A model generated the notes under the pieces. It was given only the letters and a program-made list of their open reading frames with translations, made no database searches and was not told the origin of the DNA. A stretch of DNA of 64,000 nt, taken from positions 11,844,001-11,908,000 of the forward strand of contig CM075992.1 in the NCBI GenBank assembly GCA_038087875.1. Reading direction: 5' to 3'. The position numbers and the translations under genes are program-made. Shown here one piece after another: positions 2,636 to 42,107 of the stretch (within the stretch, counting starts at the first letter, position 1; every line of letters begins with the position of its first letter). This DNA comes from Malacoraja senta. Lineage: Eukaryota.

Positions 2636-4192
2636 ACTTTCCAATACTCCTCTATGTACCTGAAACCAGCTGGTATGGCCTTGCCTCTTCCCATTCATGC
2701 CAAGTTCAAAGCACAAACTACACAGTGAGGCAAAACAGTAAAGTATTAAACACAAAAATATGAGTGTCACCACCCACCTTTGCAGCCTCTGTTGTCTGTG
2801 AAGTTACGTTGTTTGCTCGGGTGGAAATATCCTGCCTTACAGGTACAGTAGTAGCTTCCCACTGTGTTGTGACAATCAGTGTTGGGGCCACACAGTGCTT
2901 GTGCAGTAGTTATATTACATTCATCCTCATCTGGATGGAGGAGGAGAAAAAAGTTCCATGCTTTAATAAAAACCAAGAAGGGATGAGTGGTTTGTTGCCC
3001 ATGCCAGTCCTCACACTCCACAGCTCATCATTCCTGGTCCTATCGTGACCTGTCCCTCCATCTCCACCATCCCTTGATTCAATCAACATTCACAATGTCA
3101 GCCTGGTGTGTCCTCAACAACTGTGGCTCCACAGTGAGGAACAGGAAGACACAACCTTCTGAGCAAAGGGACCTTTCCTCAGCCCAGGCCTAAACGGACA
3201 AAGCCACTGCCTCTCTGCTCCTCTGTTACTCCCACATCTACATCAGCAAACTTAGATTATTTCTGCTTTTTGTGAAGTGTGTTATGTCATTACAAGGAGT
3301 CTTGCCTACCCCTGCTTCTCACAATACCCCTCACTCCTCCCCCCACCTACCCCACCTGGCCATCGCCACATCCCTCCCAGTGGAACCCCTCCCCCCTCCG
3401 TTGTTCCCATCCCCCATTACTCTTCCCATATTGATTCACTCTTCACCTTGCTTTCATATCAAATTCCAGAATCCGCAGCCTTTTCTTGTTTCCACATCAC
3501 CTCCCGGTCCCTGTCTCTATTTCCACCCTTCCCTACCCCACCCTATCTGCTAATTAACCCTTCCTCATCTGTATCCACCTATCACTTGCCACACTTGCCC
3601 CAAGCCCTCCCCCACTCTTTGCAGTGACTATCTCACTTCTATTCTTTCTGCCCACATGTAGGTCAGAACCTGTCCATTTTCCACCAGAGATGCTGCCTGA
3701 CCCACTGACAATTCTCCTTTGTTGTGCCAGATCCCAGCATCTGCGATCTCTTCTGCCTGCTAGACCACCTCATGATTCACTCTCATTCAAATATTCATCA
3801 CAAGAGAAATAGAACAAATTTCTTGGTCTTTTCACAGCCGAAGGCTTTGGTGAGATCTGAAAGTAAGGGCGGTTAGCTTTGTCCAAGCTTCCATCGCTGA
3901 TACATTGGCTCTTGAGGCAATACGATTCCGGAATGAGCAGTCTTCCCTTGATAGGGTTAGAGACACCTGGTGATTGAAGGTGGGGAGACTGGGAAACTTG
4001 AGGCAGAGTGAGGTACCCTGACATTGCCTCAGCTTTCCCCATCTTGGCGTCATGGATACCCGTTGAACCATCCGTACCATCCGCCATTCCGGAACTGAAG
4101 CTACTGGCTTATAGAAAAAGACTCAAAGTGCTGGAGTAACTCAGCAGCTCAGGCAGCATCACTGGAGAACAGGTACAGGTGACATTTTGGTT
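2636..4192. repeat. Local duplication unit 1 carrying an EGF exon
   Basis: Colinear and near-identical to 9548-12160 and 41320-42100. Confidence 0.9.
2778..2930 (-). CDS. Internal exon: calcium-binding EGF-like domain, copy 1 (probable ADGRE/CD97/EMR-like adhesion GPCR)
   Basis: Acceptor ctccatccag and donor AAG|gtgggt; 153 bp, phase 1-1. Encodes (D)[50 protein letters not shown], with 6 Cys, DxDEC and CxNTxGSYxCxC. The gene family is inferred from domain style only. Confidence 0.88.
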
Positions 4193-4589
4193 TGTCGTGG
4201 AGGCGGGTGGGGGAAGAAAGCTGGAAGAGAAGTCAGGGCAGGACAAAGCCTGGCAAGTGATATGTAGATACAAGTGGGGAAGGGGCTGATTAACTCCTGT
4301 GGATGTTGAAGAAACAGCAGCAAAGAGAAGCAGGAAATAGCACTGATTGGCTCTAGCCCGAGTGGGAGGAGAGTTAGAAGTGAGTCAGAGGGGGAAAACA
4401 GTTTAAAACTGAGGAATTTGGTTTGATAATTGGTAAATTAGGCAATTTATCAGTCAATATAAGCTAGGCGGCTCTTAGGGAGCAGCCTTGTGAGGGAAGT
4501 GCCTTGTGAGAAAAGTGTGAGTCTTTGGCGAGGAGGCTGAGGAGAGAAGGCTACACTTAAAGCTGGAGAGGACGGAACGCGGTGAACAC

Positions 4590-5462
4590 ATGTCGGGGCA
4601 GATGAGACAGTGTGAGTCTTGCAGAATATGGGAGCCCAGGGACACAGATGGAGCCTCTGGCTGCTACAACTGTAGCAAGTTCGTCCAGATTCAGCTCCTA
4701 AAGGAACGTGTTGTGGCCCTAGAGAAGCAGCTGGATTGCCTCCGGGCCATCTGGGAAAACGAATGTTTCCTGGGCAGCAAATACAGTGAGGTAGTCACGC
4801 CGAGGTTATGGGAAGAACCAAGGTGTGTAACGGAGAGAAAGGGTGGAAATCGTGGAGTGCAGAAGACTCGGGTGGTTGTGCCTAATGAAAACAGGAACGC
4901 CCTCTTGGGAACTGTCTGGGGAGACGATGTTTCTAGTCCGAGCGGTGGACACGTCGGTGGCTCCAATCCTGGAGATGGGACTCGACCGGCGAGACCGACG
5001 TCAGGCAGAGCCTTCGTGGTGGGTGACTCCATTGTCCGAGGGATGGACAGGAGATTCTGTGGAGGCAGACGAGATGCGAGGATGGTCTGTTGCCTCCCTG
5101 GTGCCAGGGTTCAAGATGTCACGAGCCGAATTCTGAACATCCTCGAGAGAGAAGGTGAACAGCCGGCAGTAGTTGTGCACGTAGGCACAAACGACATTGG
5201 GAAGAAGTGGAAGGAGGTTCTCCAACATGACTTCAGAGAGCTGGGAAGAAGACTGAAATGCCGGACTTCTAGGGTGGTTATCTCTGGATTGCTTCCAGTA
5301 CCTCGTGCTAGTGAGGACAGGAACAGGGAGATAGGGGATCTGAATGTGTGGCTGAGGGGCTGGAGCAGGGAGCAAGGATTTAGATTTATAGACCACTGGG
5401 ATCTCTTCTGGGGTAGGGGTGACCTGTACAAAAGGGACTGGTTACACCTTAACTGGAGGTGA
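4590..5462 (+). CDS. CR1 ORF1p: N-terminal Cys-rich segment/coiled coil + SGNH/GDSL esterase domain
   Basis: CESC..CYNC, GDSIVRG, HVGTND and DWLHLN motifs. Confidence 0.85.
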   Translation: MSGQMRQCESCRIWEPRDTDGASGCYNCSKFVQIQLLKERVVALEKQLDCLRAIWENECFLGSKYSEVVTPRLWEEPRCVTERKGGNRGVQKTRVVVPNENRNALLGTVWGDDVSSPSGGHVGGSNPGDGTRPARPTSGRAFVVGDSIVRGMDRRFCGGRRDARMVCCLPGARVQDVTSRILNILEREGEQPAVVVHVGTNDIGKKWKEVLQHDFRELGRRLKCRTSRVVISGLLPVPRASEDRNREIGDLNVWLRGWSREQGFRFIDHWDLFWGRGDLYKRDWLHLNWR

Positions 5463-8382
5463 ACCGACATTCTGGCAGGCAGGTTTGCTAGGGCTGCACG
5501 TGTGGGTTTAAACTAAATAGTGGGGGGGAGGGATTGACAAATTGGGAGAATAAAGATGGAGTTGAAGGGGAAGTGGCTGCAAGAAAAATTACAAAAGATT
5601 CTCAAATTAATGGGAAGGAAAGCTTTAGAATGGACAACAGAGTAAGGTCAGGGCCAATTGCGAACGGTGCGAGGGGGGAAGTGAATACGGAGGTCAAAGT
5701 GCTGATTATGAATGCGTGAAGTATAAGGAATAAAGTGGACGAGCTTGAAGCTTAGCTAGAAACTGGCAAGTATGATTTTGTGGGAATTACTGAGACATGG
5801 CTGCAAGAGGGCCAGGGCTGGGAACTGAATATTCAAGGGTATACCTCCTATCGAAAATACAGAAAGGTGGGCAGAGGGGTTGGGGTTGCCCAGTGGGTGA
5901 GGAATTAAATTCAGTCCCTTGCAAGGGGTGACATTGAAACAGGAGATGTGGAGTCAGTATGGATAGAACTAAGGAATTGTAAGGGTAAAAAGACCCTAAT
6001 GGGACTAATCTACAGGTCCCCAAACAGTAGCCTGGACATAGGGCGCAAGTTGAATCAAGAGTTAAAATTGGCATGTAGTAAAAGTAATGCTGTGGTTGTT
6101 ATGGGAGATTTCAACATGCAGGTAGACTGGGAAAATCAGGTTGGTACTGGACCCCAAGGAAGGGGCTTTGTAGAGTGCCTCTGTGATGGATTCTTTGAAC
6201 AGCTTGTATTGGAACCTACCAGGGAGAAGGCAATTCTGGATTTAGTGTTAAGTAATGAACTGGATTTGATAAAGGACCTCGAGGTTAATTAGCCATTAGG
6301 AGGCAGTGACCATAACATGGTCAGGTTTAATCTACAATTGGAGAGGGAGAAGAGTAGATCAGAGGTATCAGTGTTGCAGTTGAATAAAGGGGAGTATGGA
6401 GCCATGAGGGAGGAGCTGGCCAAAGTTGACTGGAAAGATACACTAGCAGGGATGACAGTGGTACAAAAATGGCAGGTGTTTTTAGGAATAATACAGAAGG
6501 TGCAGGATCAGTTCATTCCAAAAAGGAAGAAAGATTCCAAGGGGAGTAAGGGGTGACCGTGGCTGACAAGAGAGGTCAGCGACAGTATAAAAATTAAAGC
6601 GAAAAAGTACAACGTAGCAAAGTTGAGCGGGAAGCAAGAGGATTGGGTAATGTTTAAAGAACAACAGGAGATAACCAAAAAGACCATACGGGGAGAAAAG
6701 ATCAGGTATGAAGGTAAGCTAGCCAAGATTAGAACGCAGGATAGTAAAAGCTTCTTATGTATGGGAAGAGGAAAAAATTAGTTAAGACCAAAGTTGGACC
6801 CTTGAAGACCGAAAAAGGTGAATTTATCATGGGGAACAAGGAAATGGCAGATGAACTGGTACTTTGGATCTGTCTTCACTAAGGAGGACACAAAGAATCT
6901 TCCTGATATAGTAGTGGTCAGAGGATCTGGGGTGACCGAGGAACTGAAGGAAATCCACATTAGGCAGGAAATGGTGTTGGATAGATTGATGGGACTGAAG
7001 GCTGATAAATCCCCAGGGCCTGATGGTCTGCATCCCAGGGTACTTAAGGAAGTGGCTCTAGAAATCGTGGATGCATTGGTGATAATTTTCCAATGTTCTA
7101 TAGACTCAGGATCAGTTCCTGTGGATTGGAGGGTAGCTAATGGTATCCCACTTTTTAAGAAAGGCAGGAGAGAGAAAACAGGGAAATTATAGACCAGTTA
7201 GCCTGACATCGGTGGTGGGTAAGATGCTGGAATCAATTATAAAAGATGAAATAGCGGCACATTTGGAAAGCAGTAACAGGATCGGTCCGAGTCAGCATGG
7301 ATTTACGAAGCGGAAATCATGCTTAACTAATCTTCTGGCATTTTTGAGCATATAACAAGGAAAATGGACAAGGGAGAGCCAGTGGATGTAGTGTACCTGG
7401 ACTTTCAGAAAGCATTTGATAAGGTCCCACATAGGAGATTAGTGGGCAAAATTAGGGCACATGGTATTCGGGGTAGAGTGCTGACATGGATAGAAAATTG
7501 GTTGGCAGACAGGAAACAAAGAGTAGGGATTAGCAGGTCCCTTTCAGAATGGCAGGCAGCGACTTGTGGGGTGCCGCAAGGCTCGTGCTGGGACTGCAGC
7601 TATTTACAATATACATCAATGATTTAGATGAAGGGAATCAAAGTAACATTAGCAAATTTGCAGATGACACAAACCTGGGTGGCAGTGTGAACTGTGAGGA
7701 GGATGCTATGAGAATGCAAGGTGACTTGGACAGGTTGAGTGGGTGGGCAGGTGCATGGCAGGTGCAGGTTTATGTGGATAAATGTGAAGTTATCCACTTT
7801 GGTAGCAAAAACAGGAAGGCAGATTACTATCTAAATGGTGTCAAGTTGGGAAAAGGGGAAGTACAAAAGGATCTGAGGGTCCTTGTTCATCAGTCAATGA
7901 AAGTAAGCATGCAGGTACAGCAGGCAGTGAAGAAAGCGAATGGCATGTTGGCCTTTATAACAAGAGAAGTTGAATATAGGATTGAGGAAGGACATTCTTG
8001 CTATTGAGGGAGTGCAGCGCAGGTTTACAAGGTAAATTCCCGGGATAGTGGGACTGTCATATGCTGAGAGAATGGACCGGGTGGGCTTGTATACTCTGGA
8101 GTTTAGAAAGATGAGAGGGTATCTTATTGAAGCATATAAGATTATTAACGGTTTGGACACGCTAGAGGCAGGAAACATGTTCCTGATGTTGGGGGGAGTC
8201 CAGAACCAGGGGCCACAGTTTCAGAATAAGGGGTAAGCCATTTAGAACGGAGACGTGGAAACACTTTTTCTCACAGAGAGTTGTGAGTCTGTGGAATTCT
8301 CTGCCTCAGAGGGTGGTGGAGGCAGGTTCTCTGGATACTTTCAATAGGGAGCTAGATAGGGCTCTTAACGATATCGTAGTCG

Positions 8383-9490
8383 GGTGTTGCTAAGGAATTG
8401 GAATCCAGTTGAAAATCTGTCATTATCCAAAATCACGATGAAATTGGTTATGCTCATGGCATTAGTTTCAGCTCAGAGAGTTCAAGCATTACAGAAACTC
8501 AGAATTGATAGAATGAAAGTAGGGCCAAATGCTGTGACATTCTATGTCTATGATTTACTGAAGCAAAGTAGACCTAGGTTCACAGGATGCAAGTTGGAAT
8601 TTTTAGCATATCCTACAGATCCACAACTATGTGTAGTAACATATGTGAAATGTTACATAGAAACAACAAAAGTTTTAAGAGGCACCGAATTGGCATTTTT
8701 TATTATTCATAAAAAGCCTCATAAGAAAGTGTCAACACAAACAATTTCACGATGGTTGAAACAGGTGTTGAGATATTCAGGTATTGATACTGATAAATTT
8801 AAATCTCATTCCACCAGGGCGGCATCAACATCAGCGGCCAGGGATTCAGACAATAGACCTTATTCTCGCGGCCGCAGGATGGGCAAGTGAACAGATGTTT
8901 CACAAGTATTACCATAAGGAGATTAAAGATCTCAGAGGGTTTGGTGATGCCATGCTGGATACAGTATTAAATCCCCCATTATAATAAATGGGCCTAATTT
9001 TGTTACTTTTATTAAAATAAATAAAAACATTAACTGATTACATTCAAATGTTGTGGTTATGCATTGTTGATTGTGCTTACTCAAATGGAGTCAATCGATG
9101 CAGTGAACACCTGGATTTGAATCCACGGTGTGAAATCACAGAGCTTTGAAATCTTCACGTAGTCACTCACGTGACTCCGAAGTAAAATAGTAAGATTAAA
9201 CGAGAATTTACCAAGTTTGAAGATTGATCTTTATTTTATGAGGAGTAACGTTGAGGGATTACGTGCCCTCCGCTCCCACCCTCATAAAAGGATCAAGCTG
9301 GTAGTTCTGTCTTTATGCATCTTACTATCATACTTCAGTAATTATCGTCTGTGATTGTCACTCCGCTGCTTTGAAAGATTGACGCGTGTGCGGCTGGACG
9401 GGGCTTCTTCACGTAATCACTCAACGTTACTCCTCATAAAATAAAGATCAAATTTCAAACTTGGTAAGTTCTCGTTTAATCTTACTATTA
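8383..9490 (+). mobile_element. DIRS1-type tyrosine-recombinase retrotransposon, 5'-truncated (YR C-terminus + ICR + right ITR)
   Basis: YR motifs SAQRVQAL and FKSHSTRAASTS, with AAGWAS..F.KYY in a shifted frame. 9187-9265 is the reverse complement of 9411-9489. Confidence 0.9.
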
Positions 9491-9689
9491 AATTGTGCTG
9501 TTGGCTCGAAGGGCCGAATGGCCTACTCCTGCACCTATTGTCTATTGATTTTCCAATACTCCTCTATGTACCTGAAACCAACTGCTATGGCCTTGCCTCT
9601 TCCCATTCATGCTAAGTTCAAAGCACAAGCTCCGCAGTGAATCAAAACAGTAAAGTATTAAATACAAAAATATGAATGTCAGCACCCAC

Positions 9690-9842
9690 CTTTGCAGCCT
9701 CTGTAGTCTGTGAAGTTACGTTGTTTGCTCGGGTGGAAATATCCTGCCTTACAGGTACAGTAGTAGCTTCCCACTGTGTTGTGACAGTCAGTGCTGGGGC
9801 CACACAGTGTTTGTGCAAAATTTCTATTGCATTCATCCTCAT
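9690..9842 (-). CDS. Internal exon: calcium-binding EGF-like domain, copy 2
   Basis: Same splice sites as copy 1, 153 bp, phase 1-1. Encodes (D)[50 protein letters not shown]. Confidence 0.88.
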
Positions 9843-10495
9843 CTGGATGGAGGAGGAGAAAAAAGATCCATGCTTTAATAAAAACCAAGAAGGGGTGAGT
9901 GGTTTGTTGCCCATGCTAGCCCTCACACTCCACAGCTGATCATTCCTGGTCCTATCGTGACCTGTCCCTCCATCTCCACCATCCCTTGATGCAATCAACA
10001 TTCACAATGTCAGCCTGGTGTGTCCTCAACAACTGTAGCTCCACAGTGAGGAACAGGAAGACACAACCTTCTGAACAAAGGGACCTTTCCTCAGCCCAGG
10101 CCTAAACGGACAAAGCCGCTGCCTCTCTGCTCCTCTGTTACTCCCACATCTACATCAGCAAACGTAGATTCTTTCTGATTTTTGTGAAGTGTGTTATGTC
10201 ATTACAAGGAGTCTTGCCTACCCCTGCTTCTCACAATACCCCTCACTACTCCCCCCACCTACCCCACCTGGCCGTCACCACACATCCCACCCAGTGGAGC
10301 CCCTTCCCCTCTGTTGTTCCCATCCCCCACTACTCTTCTCATATTGATTCACTCTTCACCTTGCTTTCCTATAAAATTCCAGAATCCGCAGCCTTTTCTT
10401 GTTTCCACATCACCTCCTGTCTCTATCTCCACCCTTCCCTTCCACACCTCATTCCATCTGCTAATTAACCCTTGCTCATCTGTAACTACCTATCA

Positions 10496-11539: not shown

Positions 11540-12164
11540 CCTATCACTTTCCACACTTGCTCCAAGCCCTCCCCCACTCTTTGCAGTGACTATCTCCCTT
11601 CTATTCTTTCTGCCCACATGAAGGTCAGAACCTGTCCATATTCCACCAGAGATGCTGCTTGACCCACTGACAATTCTCCTTTGTTGTGCCAGAACCCAGC
11701 ATCTGCGATCTCTCGTGCCTCCTAGACTACCTCATGATTCACTCTCATTCAAATATTCATCACAAGAGAAATAGAACAATTTTCTTGGTCTTTTCACAAC
11801 CTTTGGTGCGATCTGAAAGTAAGGGCGGTTAGCTTTGTCCAAGCTTCCATCGCTGATACACTGACTCTTGAGGCAATGCGATTCCGGAATGAGCAGTCTT
11901 CCCTTGATAGGGTTAGAGACACCTGGTGATTGAAGGTGGGGAGACTGGGAAACTCGAGGCAGAGTCAGGTACCCTGGCTTTGGCTCAGCTTTCCCCTGGC
12001 TTCATGGATACGTGTTGAACCATCCGCACCATCCGCAATTCAGGATTCTTGGAAGCACAGGAACTGCATATGCTGGCTTATAGAAAAAGACAAAGTGCTG
12101 GAGTAACTCAACAGACCAGGCAGCATCACTGGAGAACAGGTACAGGTGACATTTCGGGTTATAT

Positions 12165-17249: not shown

Positions 17250-20200
17250 TCTTCATTTACTTCAAAATCTAGAGGCACGTCAATCATCATAAGAAAAGGT
17301 ATACCATTTAAAGCAAAGAATATTATAACAGATATAGAAGGGAGATACCTAATAGTTAATGGAGAAATCCATGACACTCCACTTTGGTAAATATATATGC
17401 CCCTAACTTTGATAACCCCCACTTTTTCAATAAAATTTTCAACATAATTGCAGAGTCAAACTATCAAAATGTTATAATAGGAGGAGACTTTAACTGTGTT
17501 TTAGATCCGTACTTAGATAAATCAAGTCAAAAACAGAGAGGGAATATGAAATCGAAAACTGGGGAACTCCTCAATACCTATATAAATAACACTAATATAG
17601 CAGATGTTTGGAGAATTGTTAATCCAACTGGCAGGGAATATTCGTTTTACTCAATGGTACATAAGACATACTCACGTATAGACTACTTTCTGCTGGATAC
17701 AAAATTAATCCCCCAAACATCTAATGCAATATACCATACAAATTCAATTTCAGACCATTCCCCACTAACTTTCTTTTTAAAACTGGAAGGATTGTCTAAG
17801 AATAAATCGTTCTGGAGATTTAATTCTCAAATTTTAAAAGATCCACAAGCGAGTATATATTTAAAAGAACAAATGGAGGTCTTTTTTCAAACAAATGATA
17901 CTTCAGATATATCGCCTACTTTACTTTGGGAATCTTTTAAAGCATACATTAGGGGTATTATAATTTCATATCAAGCTTTTCAAAATAAAAAGAATAAGAA
18001 TGAACAAAGACAGTTAGAAGAACTTATTAGACAAATGGATATAGATAATGCTAAAGATCCATCAATAGATAAACATAATAAAATAATAATTTTAAAATTT
18101 AAATTAAATAAATTATTATCTGCCAAACTTATAAGACTTTTTCAAATTACAAAACAAGAGCACTTTGAATTTGGGGATAAACCGCATAAACTTTTGGCTC
18201 GCCAGCTAAAAAAACGAGAAAAGGAACATACTATACCAAAGATCAAATCAGATAAAGGGGAATTATTAACAACACCGAAGGATATTAATAAAAGATTTGC
18301 GCAATTTTACGAGAATTTGTATACATCTAAAACGATAATTGATTCCAATAATATCACAAAGTTCTTGGATACCTGTAATCTTCCAAAGTTAGAGCTGAAG
18401 GAACAAGAGGAACTGGGTGCACAAATCTCAATTAAGGAATTAGAAGATACAATAAACTCATTAAAGAATGGAAAAACACCAGGCCCTGATGGATTTACTA
18501 ATGAATTTTATAAAAGCTTTTATGATAAACTAATACCAAGATTACAAAAAATGTACCAATACGCTTTTAAAAAACGAATACTACCTGATACATTAGCGGA
18601 ATCAACGATTACACTAATACCTAAGAAAAATAAAGATTTAGAAGAACCTGGTTCATATAGAGCTATAGCATTGTTAAACACAGATCAAAAAATATTAGCG
18701 AAAACATTAGCTAGAAGATTAAGTAAATACATTAGTAAATTAATAAACCCAGATCAGACAGGGTTTATCCCTAAGAGATACTCTTCTAATAATATGAGAC
18801 GTCTACTCAACATAATGCACTCACACAAATCTGAAGATAAAGAATTATCAATTATTTCGCTGGATGCTGAAAAAGCATTTGATCAAGTAGAATGGAATTA
18901 TATGGATAAAGTATTACAAAAATTTCAACTGGGAGAGAATTTTATTTTATGGATTAAGTTACTATATAACAAACCTACAGCTAGAATACTAACTAATAAC
19001 ATATTATCCTCGAAATTTCAACTATCAAGGGGAAATAGACAAGGATGCTCATTATCACCACAGCTGTTTGCTCTCATTATTGAACCGCTAGCAGAAAAAA
19101 ATAGAATACACCCTGATATTCATGGATATAATACTAAAGACTCATATAATAAAATATCTTTATACGCGGATGATATATTACTGTATATTACAAAACCTCA
19201 AATCACTATACCAAATATATTAAATTTAATTGAAGACTTTGGATCTTTTTCTGGATATAGAATAAATTGGAATAAAAGTGAAATTATGTCAATAAAACCG
19301 AAAGATTCAACACATCTTTTAAAATTCCCTTTTAAAATAGCTACAGAAAAATTTAAATATTTGGGAATCGAAATTACCAGAACATATCAAGGTATGTTCA
19401 GGGCAAATTTTGACCCCCTACTTAATAAATTAAATACACTAATTAAATTCTGGAAAACGCTCCCGATGTCTTTAATAGGCCGAATAAACGCAATAAAAAT
19501 GATCTTTTTACCACAAATTTTATACCTATTTCAATCAATTCCTATATACTTACCTAAGAAGTTTAAAAAAAAACTCGACTCAGATATCACTAATTTTATA
19601 TGGGACTATAAATCACATAGAATACAAAAAACTCATCTGAATAAACCTAAAGTATTGGGGGGTTTAGCACTACCTAATTTTATGTATTATTATTGGTCAG
19701 TAACTATTAAAAACATGATTCAACTGATGGATAACTCCGCCCAGCAAGTAGACTGGATTGTAATGGAGAAAGAGGATTGCTCCTCTAGAAACATTGGAGC
19801 AATCCTCCTCTCTCCAATGAAACTGAATAACATAAATTATAATAAGAACCCAATTATTCATAGTACAATCCGTATTTGGAAACAAATAAAACAAAATTTA
19901 AAATTAAGAAATTTATCACTTTTATTACCTATAGTCCTTCTATTATAGATAAAGCTTATACACAATGGGATAGACTAGGAATTAAAACGCTTGGTGACTT
20001 GTATGAAACTGGAAAATTACTTTCATTTCAACAATTACAAATAAAATATAAACTCGGAAATAATCAATATTTTAAATATTTTCAAATATGCGACTATTTG
20101 AAAAAATATACAAAAGATCATTATAATAACCCAGTAGATGTATTGGACGAGGCAATGCAGATAAAAGCGGAATCAGCAAACTTAATATCATATTTGTATA

Positions 20201-21242
20201 ATATTATTTTAAATGTACAAATACCACCTACGGAGGGTATCAGAAGAGACTGGGAACAAGAGTTAGCTATTAAAATTTCAAAGGAAAGTTGGAATGAATA
20301 CTTATTAAACGTGCATAAATGCTCGATTAATGTAAGACACACTTTAATACAATTTAAAATTTTACATAGATTATATTATTCGAAAACTAAAATTCATAAA
20401 ATTTTCCCAAACGTATCATCTATTTGTGATAAATGTCAATCCCAAGAAGCTACTATAGCGCACTCATTCGTCTTCTGTACAAAAATTCAAAAATTTTGGA
20501 ATGAAATTTTTGAAATCTTTACAAAGTTATTTAAAACAAGACTGATACCCAAAGCAGAATGGATTATCTTCGGAATAACGGAAGATGATCCAGAACTAAA
20601 TGTGTTTCAAAAGAAATTAATGGACTATGGGTTAATAACTGGAAAAAAGCTAATTCTAAAATTTTGGAAGAAGGCTCCAATACCAACTATAAATATGTGG
20701 ATTTCAAATATGTTTGAAACATTGCACCTAGAAGAGATAAGACTCCTCCTAGCAGGTAAACCAAATCACTTCCACCTGACGTGGTCTGCATTTATAGAAT
20801 TATTACAAACATAGGGTGCAAAATTACTTTTAAAAAAATAAAAAATTGAGGTCAGGTAAGGGGGGATGATAGTTGAAGAGTTGGTATGTCCTATTTACGT
20901 AATGCTCAAAAAAACATTTTTTTTTTTTTTTTTTTTTCCTCTCTCTCTCTTTTTTTTCCTAGGGCCTATTTCTTAACTCTTTTTCTTTTGTTTTTAATTT
21001 CGCTCTTATAGGGTCTTCGTCCTTTTTTGTTGTTACATTTTCTACACTTTTCTACACTTTCACTTTTTCCTTCACTTTCTTCTTTCTTTCAATCTTTTCC
21101 TTTTCTAGTGTAAAAAAATAAATAAAGGGAGTACATTAATTGTAAGAAGATACAAATGACGAGTATTAATGTATGTGGTTGTAATGTAATTTACTTCTAA
21201 TAAATAAAAATTTAAAAAAAAATAAAAAAAAATAAAAAAAGA
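17250..21242 (+). mobile_element. 5'-truncated L1 LINE with 15-bp TSD
   Basis: TSD ACAAA(T/C)GTTCGCGCC at 17235-17249 and 21243-21257. Carries an EN-RT ORF2 and a poly-A tail. Confidence 0.95.
17384..20814 (+). pseudogene. L1 ORF2 (APE endonuclease, RT, CCHC-like end), one frameshifting deletion near 19935
   Basis: GGDFN, YSRID, SDH, PGPDG, DAEKAFD, RQGC and YADD motifs in ORFs 17384-19948 and 19876-20814. Confidence 0.9.
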
Positions 21243-24633: not shown

Positions 24634-24647
24634 TGATGACGTCATCA
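24634..24647. promoter_or_regulatory. Perfect 14-bp palindrome with CRE core in L1 5' UTR
   Basis: TGATGACGTCATCA contains TGACGTCA, within a CpG-rich 5' UTR. Confidence 0.5.
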
Positions 24648-26644: not shown

Positions 26645-29600
26645 ATGCATGACACCAAACAAAAGAACCTAGGAGGAATCTCATTTTGTAGTTGGAATAT
26701 AAGAGGTATTAACGAACCTATTAAAAGGGGTAAGATACTAGCTCAGCTGAAACTGTACAACTCCGACATTACCTTCCTACAAGAAACACACTTAAAATCT
26801 CAGGATCAAGTTAGGTTGAGGGCGAAATGGATAGGTCAAACATACCATTCTTCATTTACTTCAAAATCTAGAGGCACGTCAATCATCATAAGAAAAGGTA
26901 TACCATTTAAAGCAAAGAATATCATAACAGATATAGAAGGGAGATACCTAATAGTTAATGGAGAAATCCATGATACTCCACTTACCTTGGTAAATATATA
27001 TGCCCCTAACTTTGATAACCCCCACTTTTTCAATAAAATTTTCAACATAATTGCAGAGTCTAATTATCAAAATGTTATAATAAGAGGAGACTTTAACTGT
27101 GTTTTAGATCCGTACTTACATAAATCAAGCCAAAAACAGAGAGGGAATATGAAATCGAAAACCGGGGAACTTCTCAATACCTATATAAACAATACTAATA
27201 TAGCAGATGTTTGGAGAATTGTTAATCCAACTGGCAGGGAATACTCGTTTTATTCAATGGTACATAAGACATACTCACGTATAGACTACTTTCTGCTGGA
27301 TACAAAATTAATCCCCTAAACATCTAACCCAATATACCACACAAATTCGATTTCAGACCATTCTCCACTAACTTTCTTTTTAAAACTGGAAGGAATGTTT
27401 AAGAATAAATCGTTTTGGAGATTTAATTCTCAAATTCTAAAAGATCCACAAGCGAGTATATATTTAAAAGAACAAATGGAGGTCTTTTTTCAAATAAATG
27501 ATACTCCAGATGTATCGCCTACTGTATTATGGGAATCTTTTAAAGCATACATTAGGGGTATTATAATTTCATATCAAGCTTTTCAAAATATAAAGAATAA
27601 GAATGAACAAAGACAGTTAGAAGAACTTATTAGACAAATGGGTATAGATAATGCTAAAGATCCATCAATAGATAAACATAATAAAATAATAATTTTGAAA
27701 TTTAAATTAAATAAATTATTATCTGCCAAACTTATAAGACTTTTTCAAATGACAAAACAAGAGCACTTTGAATTTGGGGATAAACCGCATAAACTTTTGG
27801 CTCACCAGCTAAAAAAACGAGAAAAGGAACATACTATACCAAAGATCAAATCAGATAAAGGGGAATTATTAACAACACCGAAGGATATTAATAAAAGATT
27901 TGCGCAATTTTATGAGAATTTGTATACATCTAAAACGACAATTGATTCCAATAATATCACAAAGTTTTTGGATAACTGTAATCTTCCAAAGTTAGAGCTG
28001 AAGGAACAAGAGGAATTGGGTGCACAAATCTCAATTAAGGAATTAGAAGATACAATAATCTCACTAAAGAATGGAAAAACACCAGGCCCTGATGGATTTA
28101 CTAATGAATTTTATAAAAGCTTTTATGATAAAATAATACCAAGATTACAAAAAATGTACCAATATGCTTTAAAAAAACGAATACTACCTGATACATTAGC
28201 GGAATCAACGATTACACTAATACCTAAGAAAAACAAAGATTTAGAAGAACCTGGTTCATATAGAGCTATAGCATTGTTAAACACAGATCAAAAAATATTA
28301 GCGAAAACATTAGCTAGAAGATTAAATAAATACATTAGTAAATTAATAAACCCAGATCAGACGGGTTTAATCCCTAAGAGATTCTCATCTAACAATATGA
28401 GACGTCTACTCAACATAATGCACTCACACAAATCTGAAGATCAAGAATTATCAATTATTTCGCTGGATGCTGAAAAAGCATTTGATCAAGTAGAATGGAA
28501 TTATATGGATAAAGTATTACAAAAATTCCAACTGGGGGAGAATTTTATTCTATGGATCAAGTTACTATATAACAAACCTACAGCTAGAATACTAACTAAT
28601 AACATATTATCCTCGAAATTCCAACTATCAAGGGGAAATAGACAAGGATGCTCATTATCACCACAGCTGTTTGCTCATTATTGAACCGCTAGCAGAAAAA
28701 ATTAGAATACACCCTGATATCCATGGATATAATACTAAAGACTCATATAATAAAATATCTTTATACGCGGATGATATATTACTGTACATTACAAAACCTC
28801 AAATCACTATACCAAATATATTAAATTTAATTGAAGACTTTGGATCTTTTTCTGGATATAGAATAAATTGGAATAAAAGTGAAATTATGTCAATAAAACC
28901 GAAAGATTCAACACATCTTTTAAAATTCCTTTTTAAAATAGCTACAGAAAAATTTAAATACTTGGGAATCGAAATTACCAGAACATATCAAGGTATGTTT
29001 AAGGCAAATTTTGACCCCCTACTTAATAAATTAAACACACTAATTAAATTCTGGAAAACGCTCCCGATGTCTTTAATAGGCCGAATAAATGCAATAAAAA
29101 TTATCTTTCTACCACAAATTTTATACCTATTTCAATCGATTCCTATATACTTACCAAAGAAGTTTTTTAGAAAACTCGACTCAGATATCACTAATTTTAT
29201 ATGGGACTGTAAATCACATAGAATTCAAAAAACTCATCTGAATAAACCTAAAGTATTAGGGGGTTTAGCACTACCTAATTTTATGTATTATTATTGGTCA
29301 GTAAATATTAAAAATATGATTCAACTGATGGATAACTCAGCCCAGCAAGTGGACTGGATTGTAATGGAGAAAGAGGATTGCTCCTCTGGAAACATTGGAG
29401 CGATCCTCCTCTCTCCAATGAAATTGAATAACATAAATTATAATAAGAACCCAATTATTCATAGTACAATCCGAATTTGGAAACAAATAAAACAAAATTT
29501 AAAATTAAGAAATTTATCACTTTTATTACCTATAGTTAATAACCCTTCATTTAATCGCTCTATTATAGATAAAGCTTTTACACATTGCGATAGACTAGGA

Positions 29601-30434
29601 ATTAAAACGCTTGGTGACTTGTATGAAACTGGAAAATTACTTTCATTTCAACAATTACCAATAAAATATAAACTCGGAAATAATCAATATTTTAAATATC
29701 TTCAAATATGCGACTATTTGAAAAAATATACAAAATATCATTATAATAACCCAGTAGATGTATTGGATGAGGCAATGCAGATAAAAGCTGAATCAGCAAA
29801 CTTAATATCATATTTGTATAATATTATCTTAAATGTACAAATACCATCTACGGAGGGTATCAGAAGAGACTGGGAACAAGAGTTAGCTATTAAAATTTCA
29901 AAGGAAAGTTGGAATGAACACTTATTAAACGTGCATAAATGTTCGATTAATGTAAGACACACTTTAATACAATTTAAAATTTTATATAGATTATATTATT
30001 CGAAAACTAAAATTCATAAAATGTTCCCAAATGTATCATCTATTTGTGATAAATGTCAATCCCAAGAAGCTACTATAGCGCACTCATTCGTTTTCTGTAC
30101 AAAAATTCAAAAATTTTGGAATGAAATTTTTGAAATCTTTACAAAGTTATTTAAAATAAGACTGATACCCAAAGCAGAATGGATTATCTTCGGAATAACG
30201 GAAGATGGTCCAGAACTAAATGTGTTTCAAAAGAAACTAATAGACTTTGGGTTAATAACTGGAAAAAAGCTAATTCTAAAATTTTGGAAGAAGGCTCCAA
30301 TACCAACTATAAATTTGTGGATTTCAAATATGTTCGAAACATTACACCTAGAAGAGATAAGACTCCTCCTAGCAGGTAAACCAGATCACTTCCACCTGAC
30401 GTGGTCTGCATTTATAGAATTATTACAAATATAG
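26645..30434 (+). pseudogene. L1 ORF2 (EN-RT-CCHC) with one nonsense codon (27317) and one frameshift (~28672)
   Basis: SWNIRG, FLQETH, GDFN, PGPDG and YADD across ORFs 26645-27319, 27395-28684 and 28671-30434. Confidence 0.92.
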
Positions 30435-30871
30435 GGTGCAAAAGTACTTTAAAAAAAAATTGAGGTCAGGTAAGGGGGGATGATAGTTGAAGAGTTGGTA
30501 TGTCCCATTTACGTAATGCTCATAAAAATATTTGTTTCTCTCTTTTTCCTCTCTCTTTCTCTTTCTTTTCTAGGGTCTATTTCTTAACTCTTTTTCTTTT
30601 GTTTTTAATTTTGCTCTTATAGGGTCTTCGTCCTTTTTTGTTGTCACATTTTCTACACTCTCACTTTTTCCTTCACTTTCTTCTTTCTTTCAATCTTTTC
30701 TTTTTCTAGTGTAAAAAATAAATGGAGTACATTAATTGTAAGAAGACATAAGTGACGAGTACTAATGTATGTGGTTGTAATGTAATGTACTTCTAATAAA
30801 TATAAATTAAAAAAAAATAATAATAATGACTCCCACTTCAGTACCTTGTCTCAGTAGCTGTGTAATGTGGA

Positions 30872-31694: not shown

Positions 31695-31785
31695 CTTGAC
31701 ACCAGGTTACTGTTTTATCAGTGAATGTAATGCGTCCAGTGTTGAAGACAAATCCGTCCTGACAGGTGCACTGATAACTTCCCAG
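31695..31785 (-). pseudogene. 5'-broken EGF-like exon (second EGF type)
   Basis: Minus strand LGSYQCTCQDGFVFNTGRITFTDKTVTWCQ followed by a phase-1 donor CAAG|gtaac. The upstream half is replaced by CR1-like 3' sequence. Confidence 0.75.
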
Positions 31786-32978: not shown

Positions 32979-33033
32979 CTTTGTCCTTTAATTTAGGGAG
33001 TAATCCAGATCTTCCAACCTAAACCACATTGCT

Positions 33034-33840: not shown

Positions 33841-34040
33841 ATATTGGACTTGTTCACTGTAACTGTAACGCTACAATGCTATCAAACTATGTTCCATATT
33901 CGGGTATTTTCTCTTTGAACAACCTGTTGTATTTGTGTGTGAGATAACTGTATGCATGTATAGTATTATCCAATCTAATCTGCACCAGTGTAATCCAATG
34001 GCGTTTCCAATCTCATTCAAGGACAAACTCACCAAAGGTG

Positions 34041-34507
34041 GTACAGTCATACAGAGGTGGGTCTGGGTGTAGAGGGTGTGGTACAGTCATACACAGGTGG
34101 GTCTGGGTGTAGAGGGTGTGGTAGAGTCATACACAGGTGGGTCTGGGTGTAGAGGGTGTGATACAGACATACACAGGTGGGACTGGGTCTAAAGTGTGTG
34201 GTACAGTCATACACAGGTGGGTCTGGGTGTAGAGGGTGTGGTACAGTCATACACAGGTGGGTCTGGGTGTAGAGGGTGTGATACAGTCATACACAGGTGG
34301 GTCTGGGTGTAGAGGGTGTGGTACAGTCATACACAGGTGGGTCTGGGTGTAGAGGGTGTGGTACACACAGGTGGGTCTGGGTGTAGAGGGTGTGGTGCAG
34401 TCATACACAGGTGGGTCTGGGTGTAGAGGGTGTGATACAGTCATACACAGGTGGGTCTGGGTGTAGAGGGTGTGGTACAGTCATACACAGGTGGGACTGG
34501 GTGTAGA
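34041..34507. repeat. 40-bp minisatellite, ~11.8 units (one 34-bp unit)
   Basis: Unit GTACAGTCATACACAGGTGGGTCTGGGTGTAGAGGGTGTG. Confidence 0.97.
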
Positions 34508-35564
34508 ATATGGTCGTGTGATAAATGATGAACCTCATGATGTGCCTGCTGAATCTGTCCATTTGGATTTCAGGCAGAAGTGGCCCTTGCACAATCCTTG
34601 TGGAGACAATGTCCATCTTCTCCCATCTGTTGGCAGTTGGGCTGAAGGGCTGTATGACTCTATGATATTTACAGTATATATTTTATACACAAGAGGTGCC
34701 AATTGTGAAGACAACTAAAGGAATAGAAGTGGAAAGGAACGGAGTGGGGGCATGAGGGAGAAGGAGAGAAATGGGAACAAATCCAGGTGGGACACAGGGA
34801 CTGGAGGGGAAAAATGCTGGGGCAAGGGTAGGGTTTATTTGTAGCTGACTTATCTAAAACCGGAGAATTCAATACTCACACTCAAGTGGAATATAAGGTA
34901 CTGGGTTTTTTTCAGCTTGTATGTTGCCTCACTGTGGCAAAGTATAAGGCCCAGGAAAGAAAATTCAGTATGGGAATGGGAAGCGGAGTTAAAATGGTTA
35001 ACAACCTGGAGGTCTAATAGGCCCTGGCAGATTGAACATAACTATTCGGTCATGTAGTCTGCGGTTGGTCTCGCCAATGTAATGGAGGCCACATCTGGAA
35101 CATTGAATGCAGCTGCAGGGGAAAGTACCTGATGGCTTGGATGGGAAGGGATGTGAGCCAATGCTTTGTGGAGAGAACAGTCTATGTAGAAGGTGGAAAG
35201 AGTGGGGATGTAAAGATGTTGTAATAATGTTAGAGATTAGAAACCGCCATTAATGTTTAGATATCTCACCATTCCCTGACAGTGATCTACGACTGTTGAA
35301 TATCTCACCAGCACCATACTAGAACTAGGGTGAAGGAAGGGGACAAAGGGAGAGGGGGGAGTGGAGAGGTGTGTATGTTGAAGTTACTTAAAAGTAGAGA
35401 ATTCTATGTTCATACTGCTGGGTGATAAGCTACCCAAACAAAATATGAGGTATTGGTCTTCTGGTTTGCATGTGGCCTCACTCTAGCAATAGAGGAGGCT
35501 CAGGTCAGAAAGGTGAGTAAGGAAATGGGAAGGGGAGTTGAAATAGTTAGCAACCGGAAGATCT

Positions 35565-38500: not shown

Positions 38501-40345
38501 TAAGCTAGCTAAGAATACAAAGGAGGATAATAAAAGCTTCTTTACGTATGTGAAGAGGAAAAAATTAGTTAAGACCAAAGTTGGTCCTTTGAAGACTGAA
38601 AAAGGTGAATTTATTACGGGGAACAAGGAAATGGCAGATGAGGTGAACAGATACTTAGGATTCGTCTTCACTAAGGAGTACACAAACAATCTTCCTGATG
38701 TACTAGTGGCCAGAGGATCCAGGGTGGCAGAGGAACTGAAGGGAATCCACATTAGGCAGGAAATGGTGTTGGGTAGACTGATGGGATTGAAGGCTGATAA
38801 ATCCCCAGGTGCCTGATGGTCTGCATCCCAGGGTACTTAAAGAAGTGGCTCTAGAAATCGTGGATGCATTGGTGATCATTTTCCAGAGTTTTATAGATTC
38901 AGGATCAGTTCATGTGGAGTGGATGGTAGCTAACGTTATTCCACTTTTCAAGAAAGGCGGGAGAGAGAAAACAGGGAATTATAGACCAGTTAGCCTGACA
39001 TCGGTGGTGGGAAGATGCTGGAGTCAATTATAAAAGATGAAATAGTGGCACATTTGGATAACAGTAACAGGATCGGTCAGAGTCAGCATGGATTTACGAA
39101 GGGGAAATCATGCTTGACTAATCTTCTGGAATTTTTTGAGGATGTAACTAGGAAAATGGACAAGGGAGAGCCAGTGGATGTAGTGCACCTGGAATTTCAG
39201 AAAGCATTTGATAAGGTCCCACATAGGAGATTAGTGGGCAAAATTAGGGCACATGGTATTGGTGGTAGCGGCCTGACATGGATAGAAAATTGGTTTTACA
39301 GACAGGAAACAAAGAGTTAACGGGTCCCTTTCAGAAAGGCAGGCAGTGATTAGTGGCGTACCACAAGGCTCGGTGCTGGGACCACAGTTATTTACAATAT
39401 ACATGAATGATTTAGATTAAGGGATTCAAAGTAACATTAGCAAATTTGCAGATGACACAAGCTGGGTGGCAGTGTGAATTGTGAGGAGGATGCTATGAGA
39501 ATGCAGGGTGAATTGGACAGGTTGGGTGAGTGGGCAGATGCATGGCAGATGCAATTTAATGTGGATAAATGTGAGGTTATCCACTTTGGTAGCAAAAACA
39601 GGAAGGCAGATTACTGTCTTAATGGTGTCAAGTTGGGAAAAGGGGAAGTACAACAGGATCTGGGGGTCCTTGTTCATTAGTAAATGAAAGTAAGCACAGC
39701 AGGCAGTGAACAAAGCAAATGGCATGTTGGCCTTTATAGCAAGAGGAGTTGTGTTTAGGAGCAAAGAGGTCCTTCTGGAGTTGTATAGGGCCCTAGTGAG
39801 ACCACACCTGCAGTAATGTGTGCAATTTTGTTCCCCTAATTTGAGGCAGGACATTTCTGCTATTGAGGGTGTTCAGCTTAGGTTTACAAGGTTAATTCCC
39901 GGGATGGCGGGACTGTCATATGCTGAGAGAATGTAGCAGCTGGGCTTGTATACTCTGGAGTTTACAATGATGAGAGGGGATCTTATTGAAACATATAAGT
40001 TTATTAAGGGTTTGGACAAAGTTGAGGCAGGAAACATGTTCCCAATGTTGGGGGAGTCCAGAGCCAGGGGCCACAGTTCAAGAATAAGAGGTAAGCCATT
40101 TAGAATGGAGACGAGGAAACACTTTTTCTCACAGAGAGTTGTGAGTCTGTGGAATTTTCTGCCTCAGAGGGCAGTGGAGGTTTCCTGGATACTTTCAAGA
40201 GAGAGCTAGATAGGGCTCTTAAAGATAGTGGATTCAGATGATATGGGGAGAAGGCAGGAACAGGGTATGATTAACCATGATCACATTGAATGGCGGTGCT
40301 GGCTCGCAGGGCTTAATGGCCTGCTCCTGCACCTATTGTTATCTT
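35565..40345 (+). mobile_element. Near full-length degenerate CR1-type LINE (same subfamily as 4300-9547) with L1 insert
   Basis: Esterase ORF1 remnants (GDSIVR), EN/RT remnants and the 3' UTR. Confidence 0.92.
36732..37482 (+). mobile_element. 5'-truncated L1 (second subfamily) with 15-bp TSD
   Basis: TSD AAAGTGTTGTATATG at 36717-36731 and 37483-37497. Encodes KKLILKFWK...FQKTWSTF and ends in poly-A. Confidence 0.92.
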
Positions 40346-40769
40346 TATGTCCTAGAGTTAAGTTCCATTAGCCATTCATTGGACCACTTTCCCAACTGAC
40401 CGAGATCCTTTTGTAAACGTATTATATATTTCCTCACTGCCCAGTATATCACAGATTTTGGAGTTACCTGCATATTTAGTAACCGCAATAACTACATGAT
40501 ATTCATATTGATAATGTAGATAAGGAACAACAATAGACCCATCACCAAACCCTCCCTGCAGCAATCCACTGGTCACAGTCCACAATCAAATAGATCAACA
40601 CATCACAACTACCCTTTGACTAGGTCATCCAAGCCAATTTTGTGATAGAGTCATAGAGTGATACAGCATGGACACATGCCCTTTGGCCCAAGTTGCCCAT
40701 GCCGGCCAACGTGTCCCTACCACACTAGTTCCATCTGCCCGTGTTTGGTCCGTATGCCTCCAAACCTGT

Positions 40770-42100
40770 CCCATCCATGTACAGTATCTGTCTAACAACA
40801 TCCCATTTGCCAGCTCACCTTGGATTCCTGACTAGTCTACCATGTGGAACCTTGTCGAATACCTTCCAAAGTCCATAAAGACAACATTGCCCTACCCCCA
40901 TCAATTCTCTTGGTGACTTCATGAAAAATCTCAGATTCATTTCCAATGAAAAAGGCCATGATGGCTGTAGAACATGGAATTTTGGAACAAACCTGCCGTA
41001 ATGTCCTGGCTGACTGGTTTGTTTGATGCAACTGATGTCACTCACAAATCATGGCACAGTTGGGTAAAAGCAATGTTATGAAAGGTAGAGTCAACGGACT
41101 TTCAAAGGCCATAAAAGATGTCAGAAAAGTTCATGCTGATAAAACAAGGTGGACGGAGGGAAGCTTATTAATTTCACACTGGTAGACGGCTCAAATATCA
41201 GAAAGAATGTGAGGAAAAACCGAGTCATCTCAGCTTTTGAATTGGAATCATCTTGTAGCTAAAAGGTGGGGGAATGGAATTGATATACGGCAGCATTGTA
41301 AGGAGAGGTGGGAGGCTTGATTTTCCAATACTCCTCTATGTACCTGAAACCAGCTGCTATGGCCTTGCCTCTTCCCATTCATGTCAAGTTCAAAGCACAA
41401 GCTCCCCAGTGAGGCAAAACTGTGAAGTATTAAATACAAAAATATGAGTGTCACCACCCACCTTTGCAGCCTCTGTTGTCTGTGAAGTTACGTTGTTTGC
41501 TCGGTTGGAAATATCCTGCCTTACAGGTACACTTGTAGCTTCCCACTGTGTTGTGACAATCAGTGTTGGGGCCACACACTGTTTGTGCAGAAGCTCCCAT
41601 ACATTCATCCTCATCTGGAAGGAGGAAAAGAAAAAAGATCCATGCTTTAATAAAAACCAAGAAGGGATGAGTGGTCTGTTGCCCATGCCAGCCCTCACAC
41701 TCCACAGCTGATCATTCCTGGTCCTATCGTGACCTGTCCCTCCATCTCCACCATCCCTTGATTCAATCAACATTCACAATGTCAGCCTGGTGTGTCCTCA
41801 ACAACTGTGGCTCCACAGTGAGGAACAGGAAGACTCACAACCTTCTGAGCAAAGGGACTTTTCCTCAGCCCAGGCCTAAACGGACAAAGCCGCTGCCTCT
41901 CTGCTCCTCTGTTACTCCCACATCTACATCAGCAAACTTAGATTCTTTCTGATTTTTGTGAAGTGTGTTATGTCATTACAAGGAGTCTTGCCTACCCCTG
42001 CTTCTCACAATACCCCTCACTCCTCCCCCCACCTACCCCACCTGGCCATCACCACACATCCCTCCCAATGGACCCCCTCCCCCCTCCGTTGTTACCATCC
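40770..42100. repeat. Local duplication unit 3 (uninterrupted left flank + EGF exon)
   Basis: 41320-42100 matches units 1 and 2. 40770-41314 matches 54480-54763 plus 59620-59879. Confidence 0.9.
41462..41614 (-). CDS. Internal exon: calcium-binding EGF-like domain, copy 3
   Basis: Acceptor tccttccag and donor AAG|gtgggt; 153 bp, phase 1-1. Encodes (D)[50 protein letters not shown]. Confidence 0.88.
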
Positions 42101-42107
42101 CCCACTA

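What the first reader, a model, noticed from the sequence alone, without database searches (positions are those of the whole stretch)
2778..41614. Three duplicated EGF exons diverge almost only at amino-acid-changing sites, clustered between Cys1 and Cys2
Seen, by hand count: copy 1 vs copy 3 has 11 nucleotide differences, none synonymous. Copy 1 vs copy 2 has 9 differences, 7 non-synonymous. Most fall in the loop NITTAQAL / NRNFAQTL / MGASAQTV. All cysteines, Ca-binding residues, splice sites and the NFT sequon are intact, and the flanking introns are very similar. Inference: diversifying selection on a ligand- or pathogen-contact surface of an ADGRE-like leukocyte receptor with a hypervariable EGF array.
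Basis: partly seen in the sequence, partly recalled or inferred. Interest (0 to 1): 0.72.

Follow-up and report, generated by a model that had tools for sequence, protein, structure and literature searches.

The report
Skate CD97-like receptor's diversifying EGF array
Three near-identical exons belong to a tandem array of seven calcium-binding EGF domains in a CD97-like adhesion receptor gene, likely of a skate, whose copies keep their scaffold but vary in the loop that binds CD55 in human CD97, likely through diversifying selection, a pattern already proposed for mammalian relatives.

Summary
The counts are right: three 153-nt phase 1-1 EGF exons on the minus strand, with 11 differences/0 synonymous (copy 1 v 3) and 9/2 (1 v 2). 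Alone they prove little: 7 of 9 is the neutral expectation, and the best pair gives P 0.035-0.07. They are 3 of 7 EGF exons of a ~214-kb ADGRE5/CD97-like gene with an open 20-exon frame, GAIN and 7TM. It lies in a cluster of young paralogs (20 exon matches on this contig), and relatives' probable-RNA contigs splice such exons in tandem. Across 17 copies whole-exon omega is 1.5-1.8 (not significant), but site models find about 20% of codons at omega about 5 (2dL 17-23). That beats 24/24 intron nulls and 40/40 conversion nulls, but 3/41 rate-variation nulls reach it. Structural residues are conserved. Variation peaks at codons 6-18 (hottest is 16, just past Cys2) and 47-49, near CD97's CD55-contact loop, and toggles N-glycan sequons. 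Against a loop-specific story, GAIN and 7TM paralog exons also show N/S of 1.3-1.9, some paralogs are broken, and distal flanks diverge faster than the near ones. Verdict: real, probably selected (~60%), agent untested; a new member of a known pattern.

The parts
2778..2930 (-). EGF_CA exon, copy 1 (4th of 7 in gene A); 153 nt, phase 1-1; loop NITTAQAL at 2893-2916; codon 16 at 2884-2886
9690..9842 (-). EGF_CA exon, copy 2 (3rd of 7); loop NRNFAQTL at 9805-9828; no sequon at codon 6
41462..41614 (-). EGF_CA exon, copy 3 (2nd of 7); loop MGASAQTV at 41577-41600; no sequon at codon 6
31695..31785 (-). Relic 3' half of a different EGF exon, most like the last calcium-binding EGF of the shark ortholog (17/30 identical); donor GT present, none of the nearby upstream AGs I read by eye gives a frame-keeping length; probably not used
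   Evidence: also present in another paralog
2561..3584 (.). Duplicated unit around copy 1 (exon plus intron flanks), 92-95% identical to the units around copies 2 and 3
9487..10495 (.). Duplicated unit around copy 2
41317..42107 (.). Duplicated unit around copy 3

Best explanation
The three exons are repeats 2-4 of a seven-repeat calcium-binding EGF array in an open-frame CD97/ADGRE5-like adhesion GPCR gene, and their surface residues at codons 6-18 and 47-49 are likely under diversifying selection while the disulfide and calcium scaffold is conserved. Shown: gene structure (signal exon, a short two-Cys exon, 7 EGF exons, linker, GAIN with H-L-T cleavage motif, 7TM), family placement, conserved scaffold, clustered amino-acid variation, and tandem splicing of homologous exons in relatives. 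Inferred: one exon type, best matching CD97/EMR2 EGF2, was amplified by unequal crossing-over, which symmetric phase 1-1 exons allow without breaking the frame; the other ancestral EGF types were lost, leaving one relic half exon. The gene then duplicated into a birth-and-death cluster with partly relaxed constraint. On top of this, selection likely favoured changes on the face that in CD97 EGF2 binds CD55, some of which add or remove N-glycan sequons (codons 6 and 16). The repeats would form a rigid rod of differing binding faces that pulls on the GAIN/Stachel switch. The selecting partner, a fast-changing host ligand or a microbe, is not identified.
For: Open frame over 19 AG/GT exons, 891 aa without stop, plus a phase-1 ATG exon; GPS above cut-off. 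The 7TM groups with shark ADGRE5-like proteins (100/99) inside the CD97-like clade (100/98). M2a v M1a 2dL 16.9 and 23.5, M8 v M8a 16.7 and 23.4, with 20-23% of codons at omega 5-6; all 5 subsets nominally significant, P 0.002-0.03. Nulls against the observed 15.1 under the same shortcut: 0 of 24 intron pseudo-codon sets (max 4.4), 0 of 5 off-frame readings of the exon (max 10.5), 0 of 40 simulations with CpG, double mutations and conversion (max 13.5). Variant counts: synonymous 8/34.2 = 0.234, near-flank 144/601 = 0.240, non-synonymous 44/115.8 = 0.38. 13 structural codons show 2 changes v 7.7 expected; the other codons 42 v 20.2, and P 0.027 against synonymous sites; codons 6-18 show 24 v 6.0-11.6 under four baselines. 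Contigs of 4 probable-RNA runs cover the exon only; 2 of 4 show the clean 2930-to-2778 joint. Best PDB matches are CD97/EMR2 EGF2, whose T70/P71 loop and residues 79-82 and 86 contact CD55 (PMC8191316).
Against: Whole-exon omega 1.49 and 1.81, P 0.19 and 0.06; synonymous v non-synonymous variant counts P 0.13. 3 of 41 simulations with omega <= 1 and intron-fitted gamma rate variation reach 15.1. Flanks more than 200 nt downstream or 500 nt upstream diverge 5-9%, against 2-5% near the exon; scaled to 6.5-7.5% the excess at non-structural sites gives P 0.09-0.32. GAIN (44 N/8 S, ratio 1.85) and 7TM (40/11, ratio 1.29) paralog exons also lack a purifying signal, and some paralogs carry a stop or gaps; intact A v B gives pN/pS 2.3 and 1.47. 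The window 6-18 was widened after seeing the data. 15 of 41 minor amino-acid states are shared with other skates, so some homoplasy may be conversion of old motifs. Only 8 synonymous variants exist, so all ratios are imprecise.
Confidence: 0.6

Rival explanations
1. Relaxed constraint in young redundant duplicates. Surface positions drift neutrally, only the scaffold is kept, and a local mutation hot spot makes codons 6-18 look selected.
For: N/S >= 1 in GAIN and 7TM exons too, with broken paralogs; M0 not different from 1; gamma-rate null reaches the observed LRT in 3 of 41; distal flanks as divergent as the exon's mean of 7.2%; one repeat of gene A has lost Cys1 and two copies in another paralog have a 1-bp deletion.
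Against: Synonymous rate equals the near-flank rate and pairwise pS is 5.0% v pN 7.9% although many codons are invariant; no 24-nt flank window reaches the loop's 16 variants (max 15); scan-corrected bootstrap P 5e-5 to 1.4e-3 against near flanks; N/intron falls from exon 2 (3.7) through EGF (1.6) and GAIN (1.2) to 7TM (0.8); intron pseudo-codons never mimic the signal (0 of 24).
Confidence: 0.28
2. Old loop types shuffled among repeats by gene conversion while nearby intron is homogenised. The exon looks more diverged than its flanks and tree-based tests over-count changes, with no ongoing positive selection.
For: Intron and exon distances are uncorrelated (r = 0.06); three copies share the same loop although their flanks differ by 4.5-5.8%; divergence dips to 1.8% 100-200 nt upstream of the exon; 15 of 41 minor states shared with Amblyraja/Leucoraja repeats; conversion between EMR2 and CD97 is cited in PMC2720389 (passages).
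Against: A PHI-like test found no distance decay of incompatibility (P 0.38); simulations with 10 conversion tracts gave 0 of 40 at the observed LRT; tree-free variant counts show the same excess; old neutral tracts should also carry synonymous changes, and the loop has 14 N v 2 S.
Confidence: 0.1
3. Assembly or base-calling artefact: false duplications and errors create the copies and differences.
For: The cluster has many scaffold gaps and inverted fragments, and one inverted copy has an identical exon 2 and first EGF exon; 1-bp deletions in two copies may be errors.
Against: A second contig repeats six exons with 1 difference in 918 nt; introns carry different transposon insertions; relatives' contigs show the same alternative letters at codons 13, 15 and 16; Amblyraja has a nine-repeat array of this type.
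Confidence: 0.02

Closest known systems
CD97/ADGRE5 (and EMR2/ADGRE2), EGF-TM7 receptors
   Same: Tandem EGF domains, GAIN/GPS and 7TM; the repeat best matches EGF2 (PDB 9mqr, 7do4, 2bo2); the variable Cys1-Cys2 loop aligns with the T70/P71 loop whose Pro/Leu difference lowers EMR2's CD55 affinity (PMC8191316).
   Different: CD97 has five distinct EGF types; here one type is repeated seven times at about 93% nucleotide identity, behind a two-Cys stub, with only a short linker before GAIN. No ligand known; CD55 binding not tested.
Shark ADGRE5-like proteins (Heterodontus P0003, Carcharodon P0097, Cetorhinus P0102, Pristiophorus P0108)
   Same: One clade with gene A at 100/99, 68-71% identity over GPS-7TM; same order of parts.
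   Different: They carry a few (four by eye in P0003 and P0097) mutually divergent EGF domains; gene A has a homogeneous array, a relic of the last shark-type EGF, and a longer branch (0.36 v about 0.1-0.17).
Amblyraja radiata P0001 ('LTBP2-like') and Leucoraja erinacea P0002 ('ADGRE2-like')
   Same: 84-86% identical repeats; nine tandem repeats in Amblyraja; the same positions vary (Spearman 0.52).
   Different: Database models are truncated before GPS/7TM, and the LTBP name is a mislabel by this evidence; states unique to those species correlate only weakly with variable sites here (rho 0.21, P 0.13).
Mammalian ADGRE1 (F4/80) rapid evolution and EGF duplication
   Same: EGF duplication, only structural and calcium motifs conserved, immune selection proposed with relaxed constraint named as the alternative (PMC6174849, passages); positive selection reported on ADGRE1/2/4/5 branches (PMC8584163, passages).
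   Different: Different clade (EMR1-like v CD97-like); there a 7-domain block doubled and variation is between species, here single exons amplified and variation is between repeats and paralogs of one genome.
Other homogenised ADGRE EGF arrays in databases (turtle P0005, catfish P0006, stingray P0009)
   Same: Runs of near-identical EGF repeats.
   Different: Independent expansions of other sequences (about 40% identity); their selection was not tested here.

Membership tests
ADGRE (EGF-TM7) | Tandem N-terminal EGF-like domains, mostly calcium-binding | tested here: met
   3 of 3 window exons over the EGF_CA cut-off; 7 in gene A, one lacking Cys1
ADGRE (EGF-TM7) | GAIN domain with GPS motif and autoproteolysis consensus H-L-T/S | tested here: met
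   GPS 61.3 bits v 22.5; H-L-T followed by the Stachel-type stretch in the spliced frame; cleavage itself not tested
ADGRE (EGF-TM7) | Adhesion-type 7TM in the same reading frame | tested here: met
   Open frame across AG/GT exons; 44-71% identity to ADGRE 7TMs; the stop-codon exon was not located
ADGRE5/CD97 clade | 7TM groups with CD97 rather than EMR1-4-like proteins | tested here: met
   Split supported 100/98 in a midpoint-rooted 26-row tree without ADGRL outgroup; one-to-one orthology not shown, as this is a local expansion
ADGRE5/CD97 clade | Binds CD55 through EGF1-2 | not testable with these tools
   Only sequence correspondence to the contact residues
ADGRE (EGF-TM7) | Leukocyte expression | not testable with these tools
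   Runs are unnamed, guessed RNA, from related organisms, tissue not given
LTBP/fibrillin | TB (8-Cys) domains, secreted without 7TM | tested here: not met
   The array splices into GAIN and 7TM exons; no TB family among P0001's listed Pfam domains
Repeat array under diversifying selection | Site class with omega significantly above 1, robust to rate variation and conversion | tested here: inconclusive
   Significant LRTs; 0/24 and 0/40 nulls but 3/41 under gamma rates

The most novel reading that the evidence does not exclude
Skates turned the CD55-binding-type EGF2 module of a CD97-like receptor into a variable, multi-gene repeat repertoire: unequal crossing-over and conversion shuffle a set of long-lived loop types among repeats and paralogs, selection keeps them different across species, distal repeats shed their loop glycan to expose a binding face, and exon skipping would combine them, giving a germline-encoded variable innate receptor wired to a mechanosensitive GPCR.
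Probability: 0.2. Interest if true: 0.65.

Novelty: new member of a known kind. Interest (0 to 1): 0.36.

Why it matters
ADGRE receptors are known to evolve fast, duplicate EGF domains and be suspected of pathogen-driven selection in mammals, but for most of them no ligand is known. This locus gives a within-genome natural series: 17 full copies of one domain with a fixed scaffold and a few variable surface sites that map beside the one solved ADGRE-ligand interface. If the selection signal holds, it names residues to test (6-9, 12-13, 16, 47, 49) and extends the pattern to cartilaginous fish, for which my four searches found no report. If it is only relaxed drift, it is an ordinary birth-and-death cluster.

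Tried and rejected
Three-exon synonymous deficit as proof of selection: rejected. Whole-exon omega > 1: not significant. PHI-like recombination test: no signal (P 0.38). First read-laying over 7.8 kb was swamped by repeats and showed no exon joint among listed rows; the exon-only laying worked. No RNA holder on record for this organism was listed. LTBP identity, from the Amblyraja label: rejected. The relic at 31695-31785 as an eighth used exon: rejected by eye, no frame-keeping acceptor. GPS and later exons for the paralog at 12.69-12.75 Mb were not matched by gene A exons in the fetched stretch, although a GPS of some kind lies at 12.77 Mb; left unresolved. Earlier scan findings: none by place, sequence or words. 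Literature searches with zero hits: ADGRE+cartilaginous+positive selection+adhesion GPCR, ADGRE+shark+gene expansion+immune, CD97+elasmobranch+EGF; one search listed nothing on skate ADGRE among its 20 shown of 699. No structure or complex prediction was run: model coordinates are not returned for surface mapping and no candidate ligand was in hand. No supplements were read; those of PMC8584163 (repertoire trees) could include elasmobranch ADGRE sequences.
Full report
Observation. The three exons exist where stated, on the minus strand: 2778-2930, 9690-9842 and 41462-41614, 153 nt each, flanked by AG and GT, phase 1-1. All three exceed the Pfam EGF_CA cut-off. In the true frame, copy 1 v 3 differs at 11 bases with none synonymous, 1 v 2 at 9 with 2 synonymous, and 2 v 3 at 14 with 2 synonymous (the codon labels printed were off by one base and were not used). 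Flanks differ by 3.9-5.0%, the loop of codons 6-13 by 21-33%, and the rest of the exon by 2-5%. The clustering is therefore real. The shortage of silent changes is weak on its own: with 75-79% non-synonymous sites, the three pairs give P 0.035-0.07, 0.56-0.70 and 0.25-0.41 under omega = 1.

What it is. The window is G000:C16:11844001-11908000. A DNA search found 26 matches of 26 candidates scored, 20 on C16 between 11.05 and 12.75 Mb and 6 on contig C2194. The closest proteins are from skates (84% Amblyraja radiata, 86% Leucoraja erinacea), then horn shark, so the organism is inferred to be a skate. Using these proteins on fetched neighbouring DNA I traced gene A on the minus strand: ATG exon at 11941560, a short two-Cys exon, seven EGF exons (the window holds numbers 2-4), a 38-nt linker, GAIN exons, GPS at 11788.6 kb and 7TM exons down to 11727 kb. 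Nineteen exons with AG/GT borders give 891 aa with no stop; the final stop exon was not located. The GPS scores 61.3 bits and holds H-L-T. In a 26-row tree of GPS-7TM, gene A joins four shark proteins (100/99) within the CD97-like side of a 100/98 split (midpoint root, no ADGRL outgroup). The repeat best matches EGF2 of CD97/EMR2 among solved structures. Against the shark ortholog it matches the first and second calcium-binding EGF almost equally (49.3 v 48.9 bits, the first over its full length), so 'EGF2-derived' is likely, not certain. A relic 3' half of another EGF type sits at 31695-31785. The surrounding region holds several more paralogs, cut by scaffold gaps and inversions, some with a stop or gaps in exons or 1-bp deletions in EGF exons. 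C2194 repeats six of gene A's exons with 1 difference in 918 nt.

Expression. No run is on record as RNA for this stretch. Contigs of four runs guessed to be RNA, from related organisms and three studies, cover 2778-2932 and nothing of the flanks; two show a clean joint from 2930 back to 2778, and two show the same join with 15 unlaid letters. This is what tandem EGF exons spliced together would give. It shows splicing of homologous exons in relatives, not of these copies, and gives no tissue.

Selection tests. I used 17 of the 26 matches, dropping 6 C2194 duplicates and 3 partial copies. One-ratio omega is 1.49 (exon tree) or 1.81 (unit tree), P 0.19 and 0.06 against 1. My own implementation of M1a/M2a, M7/M8 and M8a (F1x4, branch proportions fixed from M0, naive empirical Bayes) gives 2dL 16.7-16.9 and 23.4-23.5, with 20-23% of codons at omega 5-6; sites 16, 47, 49, 13, 8, 9, 12 and 38 stand out on both trees. 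Five subsets each give P 0.002-0.03. Against an observed 15.1 under the same shortcut, 0 of 24 intron pseudo-codon sets and 0 of 5 wrong-frame readings reach it, nor do 0 of 40 simulations with CpG hot spots, double mutations and ten conversion tracts, but 3 of 41 simulations with intron-fitted gamma rates do. Tree-free counts: synonymous 8/34.2, near-flank 144/601, non-synonymous 44/115.8; block bootstrap P 0.002-0.007 against near flanks. Thirteen structural codons chosen from the EGF consensus (my knowledge) show 2 changes against 7.7 expected, so the fold is under purifying selection; the others show 42 against 20.2.

Results against. Collinear flanks further out diverge 5-9%, near ones 2-5%. 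With the baseline scaled to 6.5-7.5% the general excess fades (P 0.09-0.32), though codons 6-18 remain high (24 v 10-11.6, P <= 0.001, window widened after seeing the data). The excess is not confined to EGF: among paralogs exon 2 has 11 N/1 S, GAIN 44/8 and 7TM 40/11, none significant alone, and open-frame genes A and B give pN/pS 2.3 in GAIN and 1.47 in 7TM. A 7TM without purifying signal points to relaxed constraint in young duplicates. The ratio of N to intron rate still falls from the tip inward: 3.7, 1.6, 1.2, 0.8. Fifteen of 41 minor amino-acid states recur in the 11 Amblyraja and Leucoraja repeats, and relatives' contigs show the same alternative letters at codons 13, 15 and 16. The array is thus probably older than these species, and some apparent repeated changes may be shuffled old motifs.

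Mechanism. Symmetric exons let repeats be gained, lost or skipped in frame (shown by phase; skipping not observed). By the alignment and the numbering of PMC8191316 (I read parts 1-3 of 6), CD97 T70/P71 fall at codons 7-9, F79-C82 at 17-20 and E86 at 24; the hottest site, 16, is K78, next to F79. That paper shows the T70/P71 loop reaches into CD55 and that Pro v Leu there helps explain EMR2's lower affinity. So the variable patch lies on or beside a known ligand face, though contact D81 is invariant here (17 of 17). Changes at 6-8 and 16 remove or create N-x-T sequons: in gene A the three distal repeats lack the codon-6 sequon and the four proximal ones have it. I commit to diversifying selection on a binding face, over a background of relaxed constraint (0.6). 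The partner is untested; force transfer to GAIN/Stachel is inferred from the family.

Known and novel. Waddell et al. (PMC6174849, passages) report EGF duplication, exon skipping and conservation of only structural and calcium motifs in mammalian ADGRE1, and propose pathogen selection while noting lack of constraint as an alternative. Wittlake et al. (PMC8584163, passages) call ADGRE numerically unstable, with positive selection on several branches. EMR2-CD97 gene conversion is cited in PMC2720389 (passages; the original was not read). Homogenised EGF runs also occur in turtle, catfish and stingray database proteins. Searches for an elasmobranch report found none, within a library that lacks most subscription papers. 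This is a new, reasonably quantified member of a known pattern. Interest 0.36.

Noticed in passing
   Followed up: partly
L011 (G000:C16:11827210-11827362) and L022 on C2194: The most proximal EGF repeat of gene A has Cys1 changed to Ser in both assembled copies, leaving an unpaired cysteine: a decaying domain or a possible disulfide link.
   Followed up: no
window about 3030-3130 and equivalents: The intron 100-200 nt upstream of the exon is only 1.8% divergent among 17 copies, against 5-9% further out: a conserved splicing element or a conversion hot spot.
   Followed up: partly
G000:C16:11920.1 kb exon 2 and four paralogs: The N-terminal two-Cys exon has 11 non-synonymous and 1 synonymous variant among 5 copies, the highest excess in the gene (P 0.14 alone).
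   Followed up: partly
G000:C16:11941-11986 kb: Exon 1, exon 2 and the first EGF exon recur inverted across a scaffold gap at 11954.6 kb with identical coding sequence but 13/652 flank differences: a haplotype misjoin or a recent inverted duplication.
   Followed up: no
window 17250-21231 and 26849-30826: Two 95% identical LINE-type copies (endonuclease plus RT; 857-aa open stretch at 17375-19945) inside the long intron between copies 2 and 3.
   Followed up: partly
window 44641-48669 (+): LTR-retrotransposon-like gag-pol frames (zinc knuckle, protease, RT by Pfam for 44641-46848); further RT frames at 50145-51335 (-) and 61936-63579 (+).
   Followed up: partly
window 34038-34507 and 52514-52832: Tandem repeats with periods of about 80 nt and about 42 nt seen in the self-comparison.
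   Followed up: no
P0001: The Amblyraja protein labelled LTBP2-like is the N-terminal half of this ADGRE, read into an intron after the first GAIN exon.
   Followed up: yes
G000:C16:11130995-11131143 and 11069073-11069227: Partial EGF exon copies: one inverted inside a 7TM intron of paralog B, one split copy just upstream of its linker exon.
   Followed up: no
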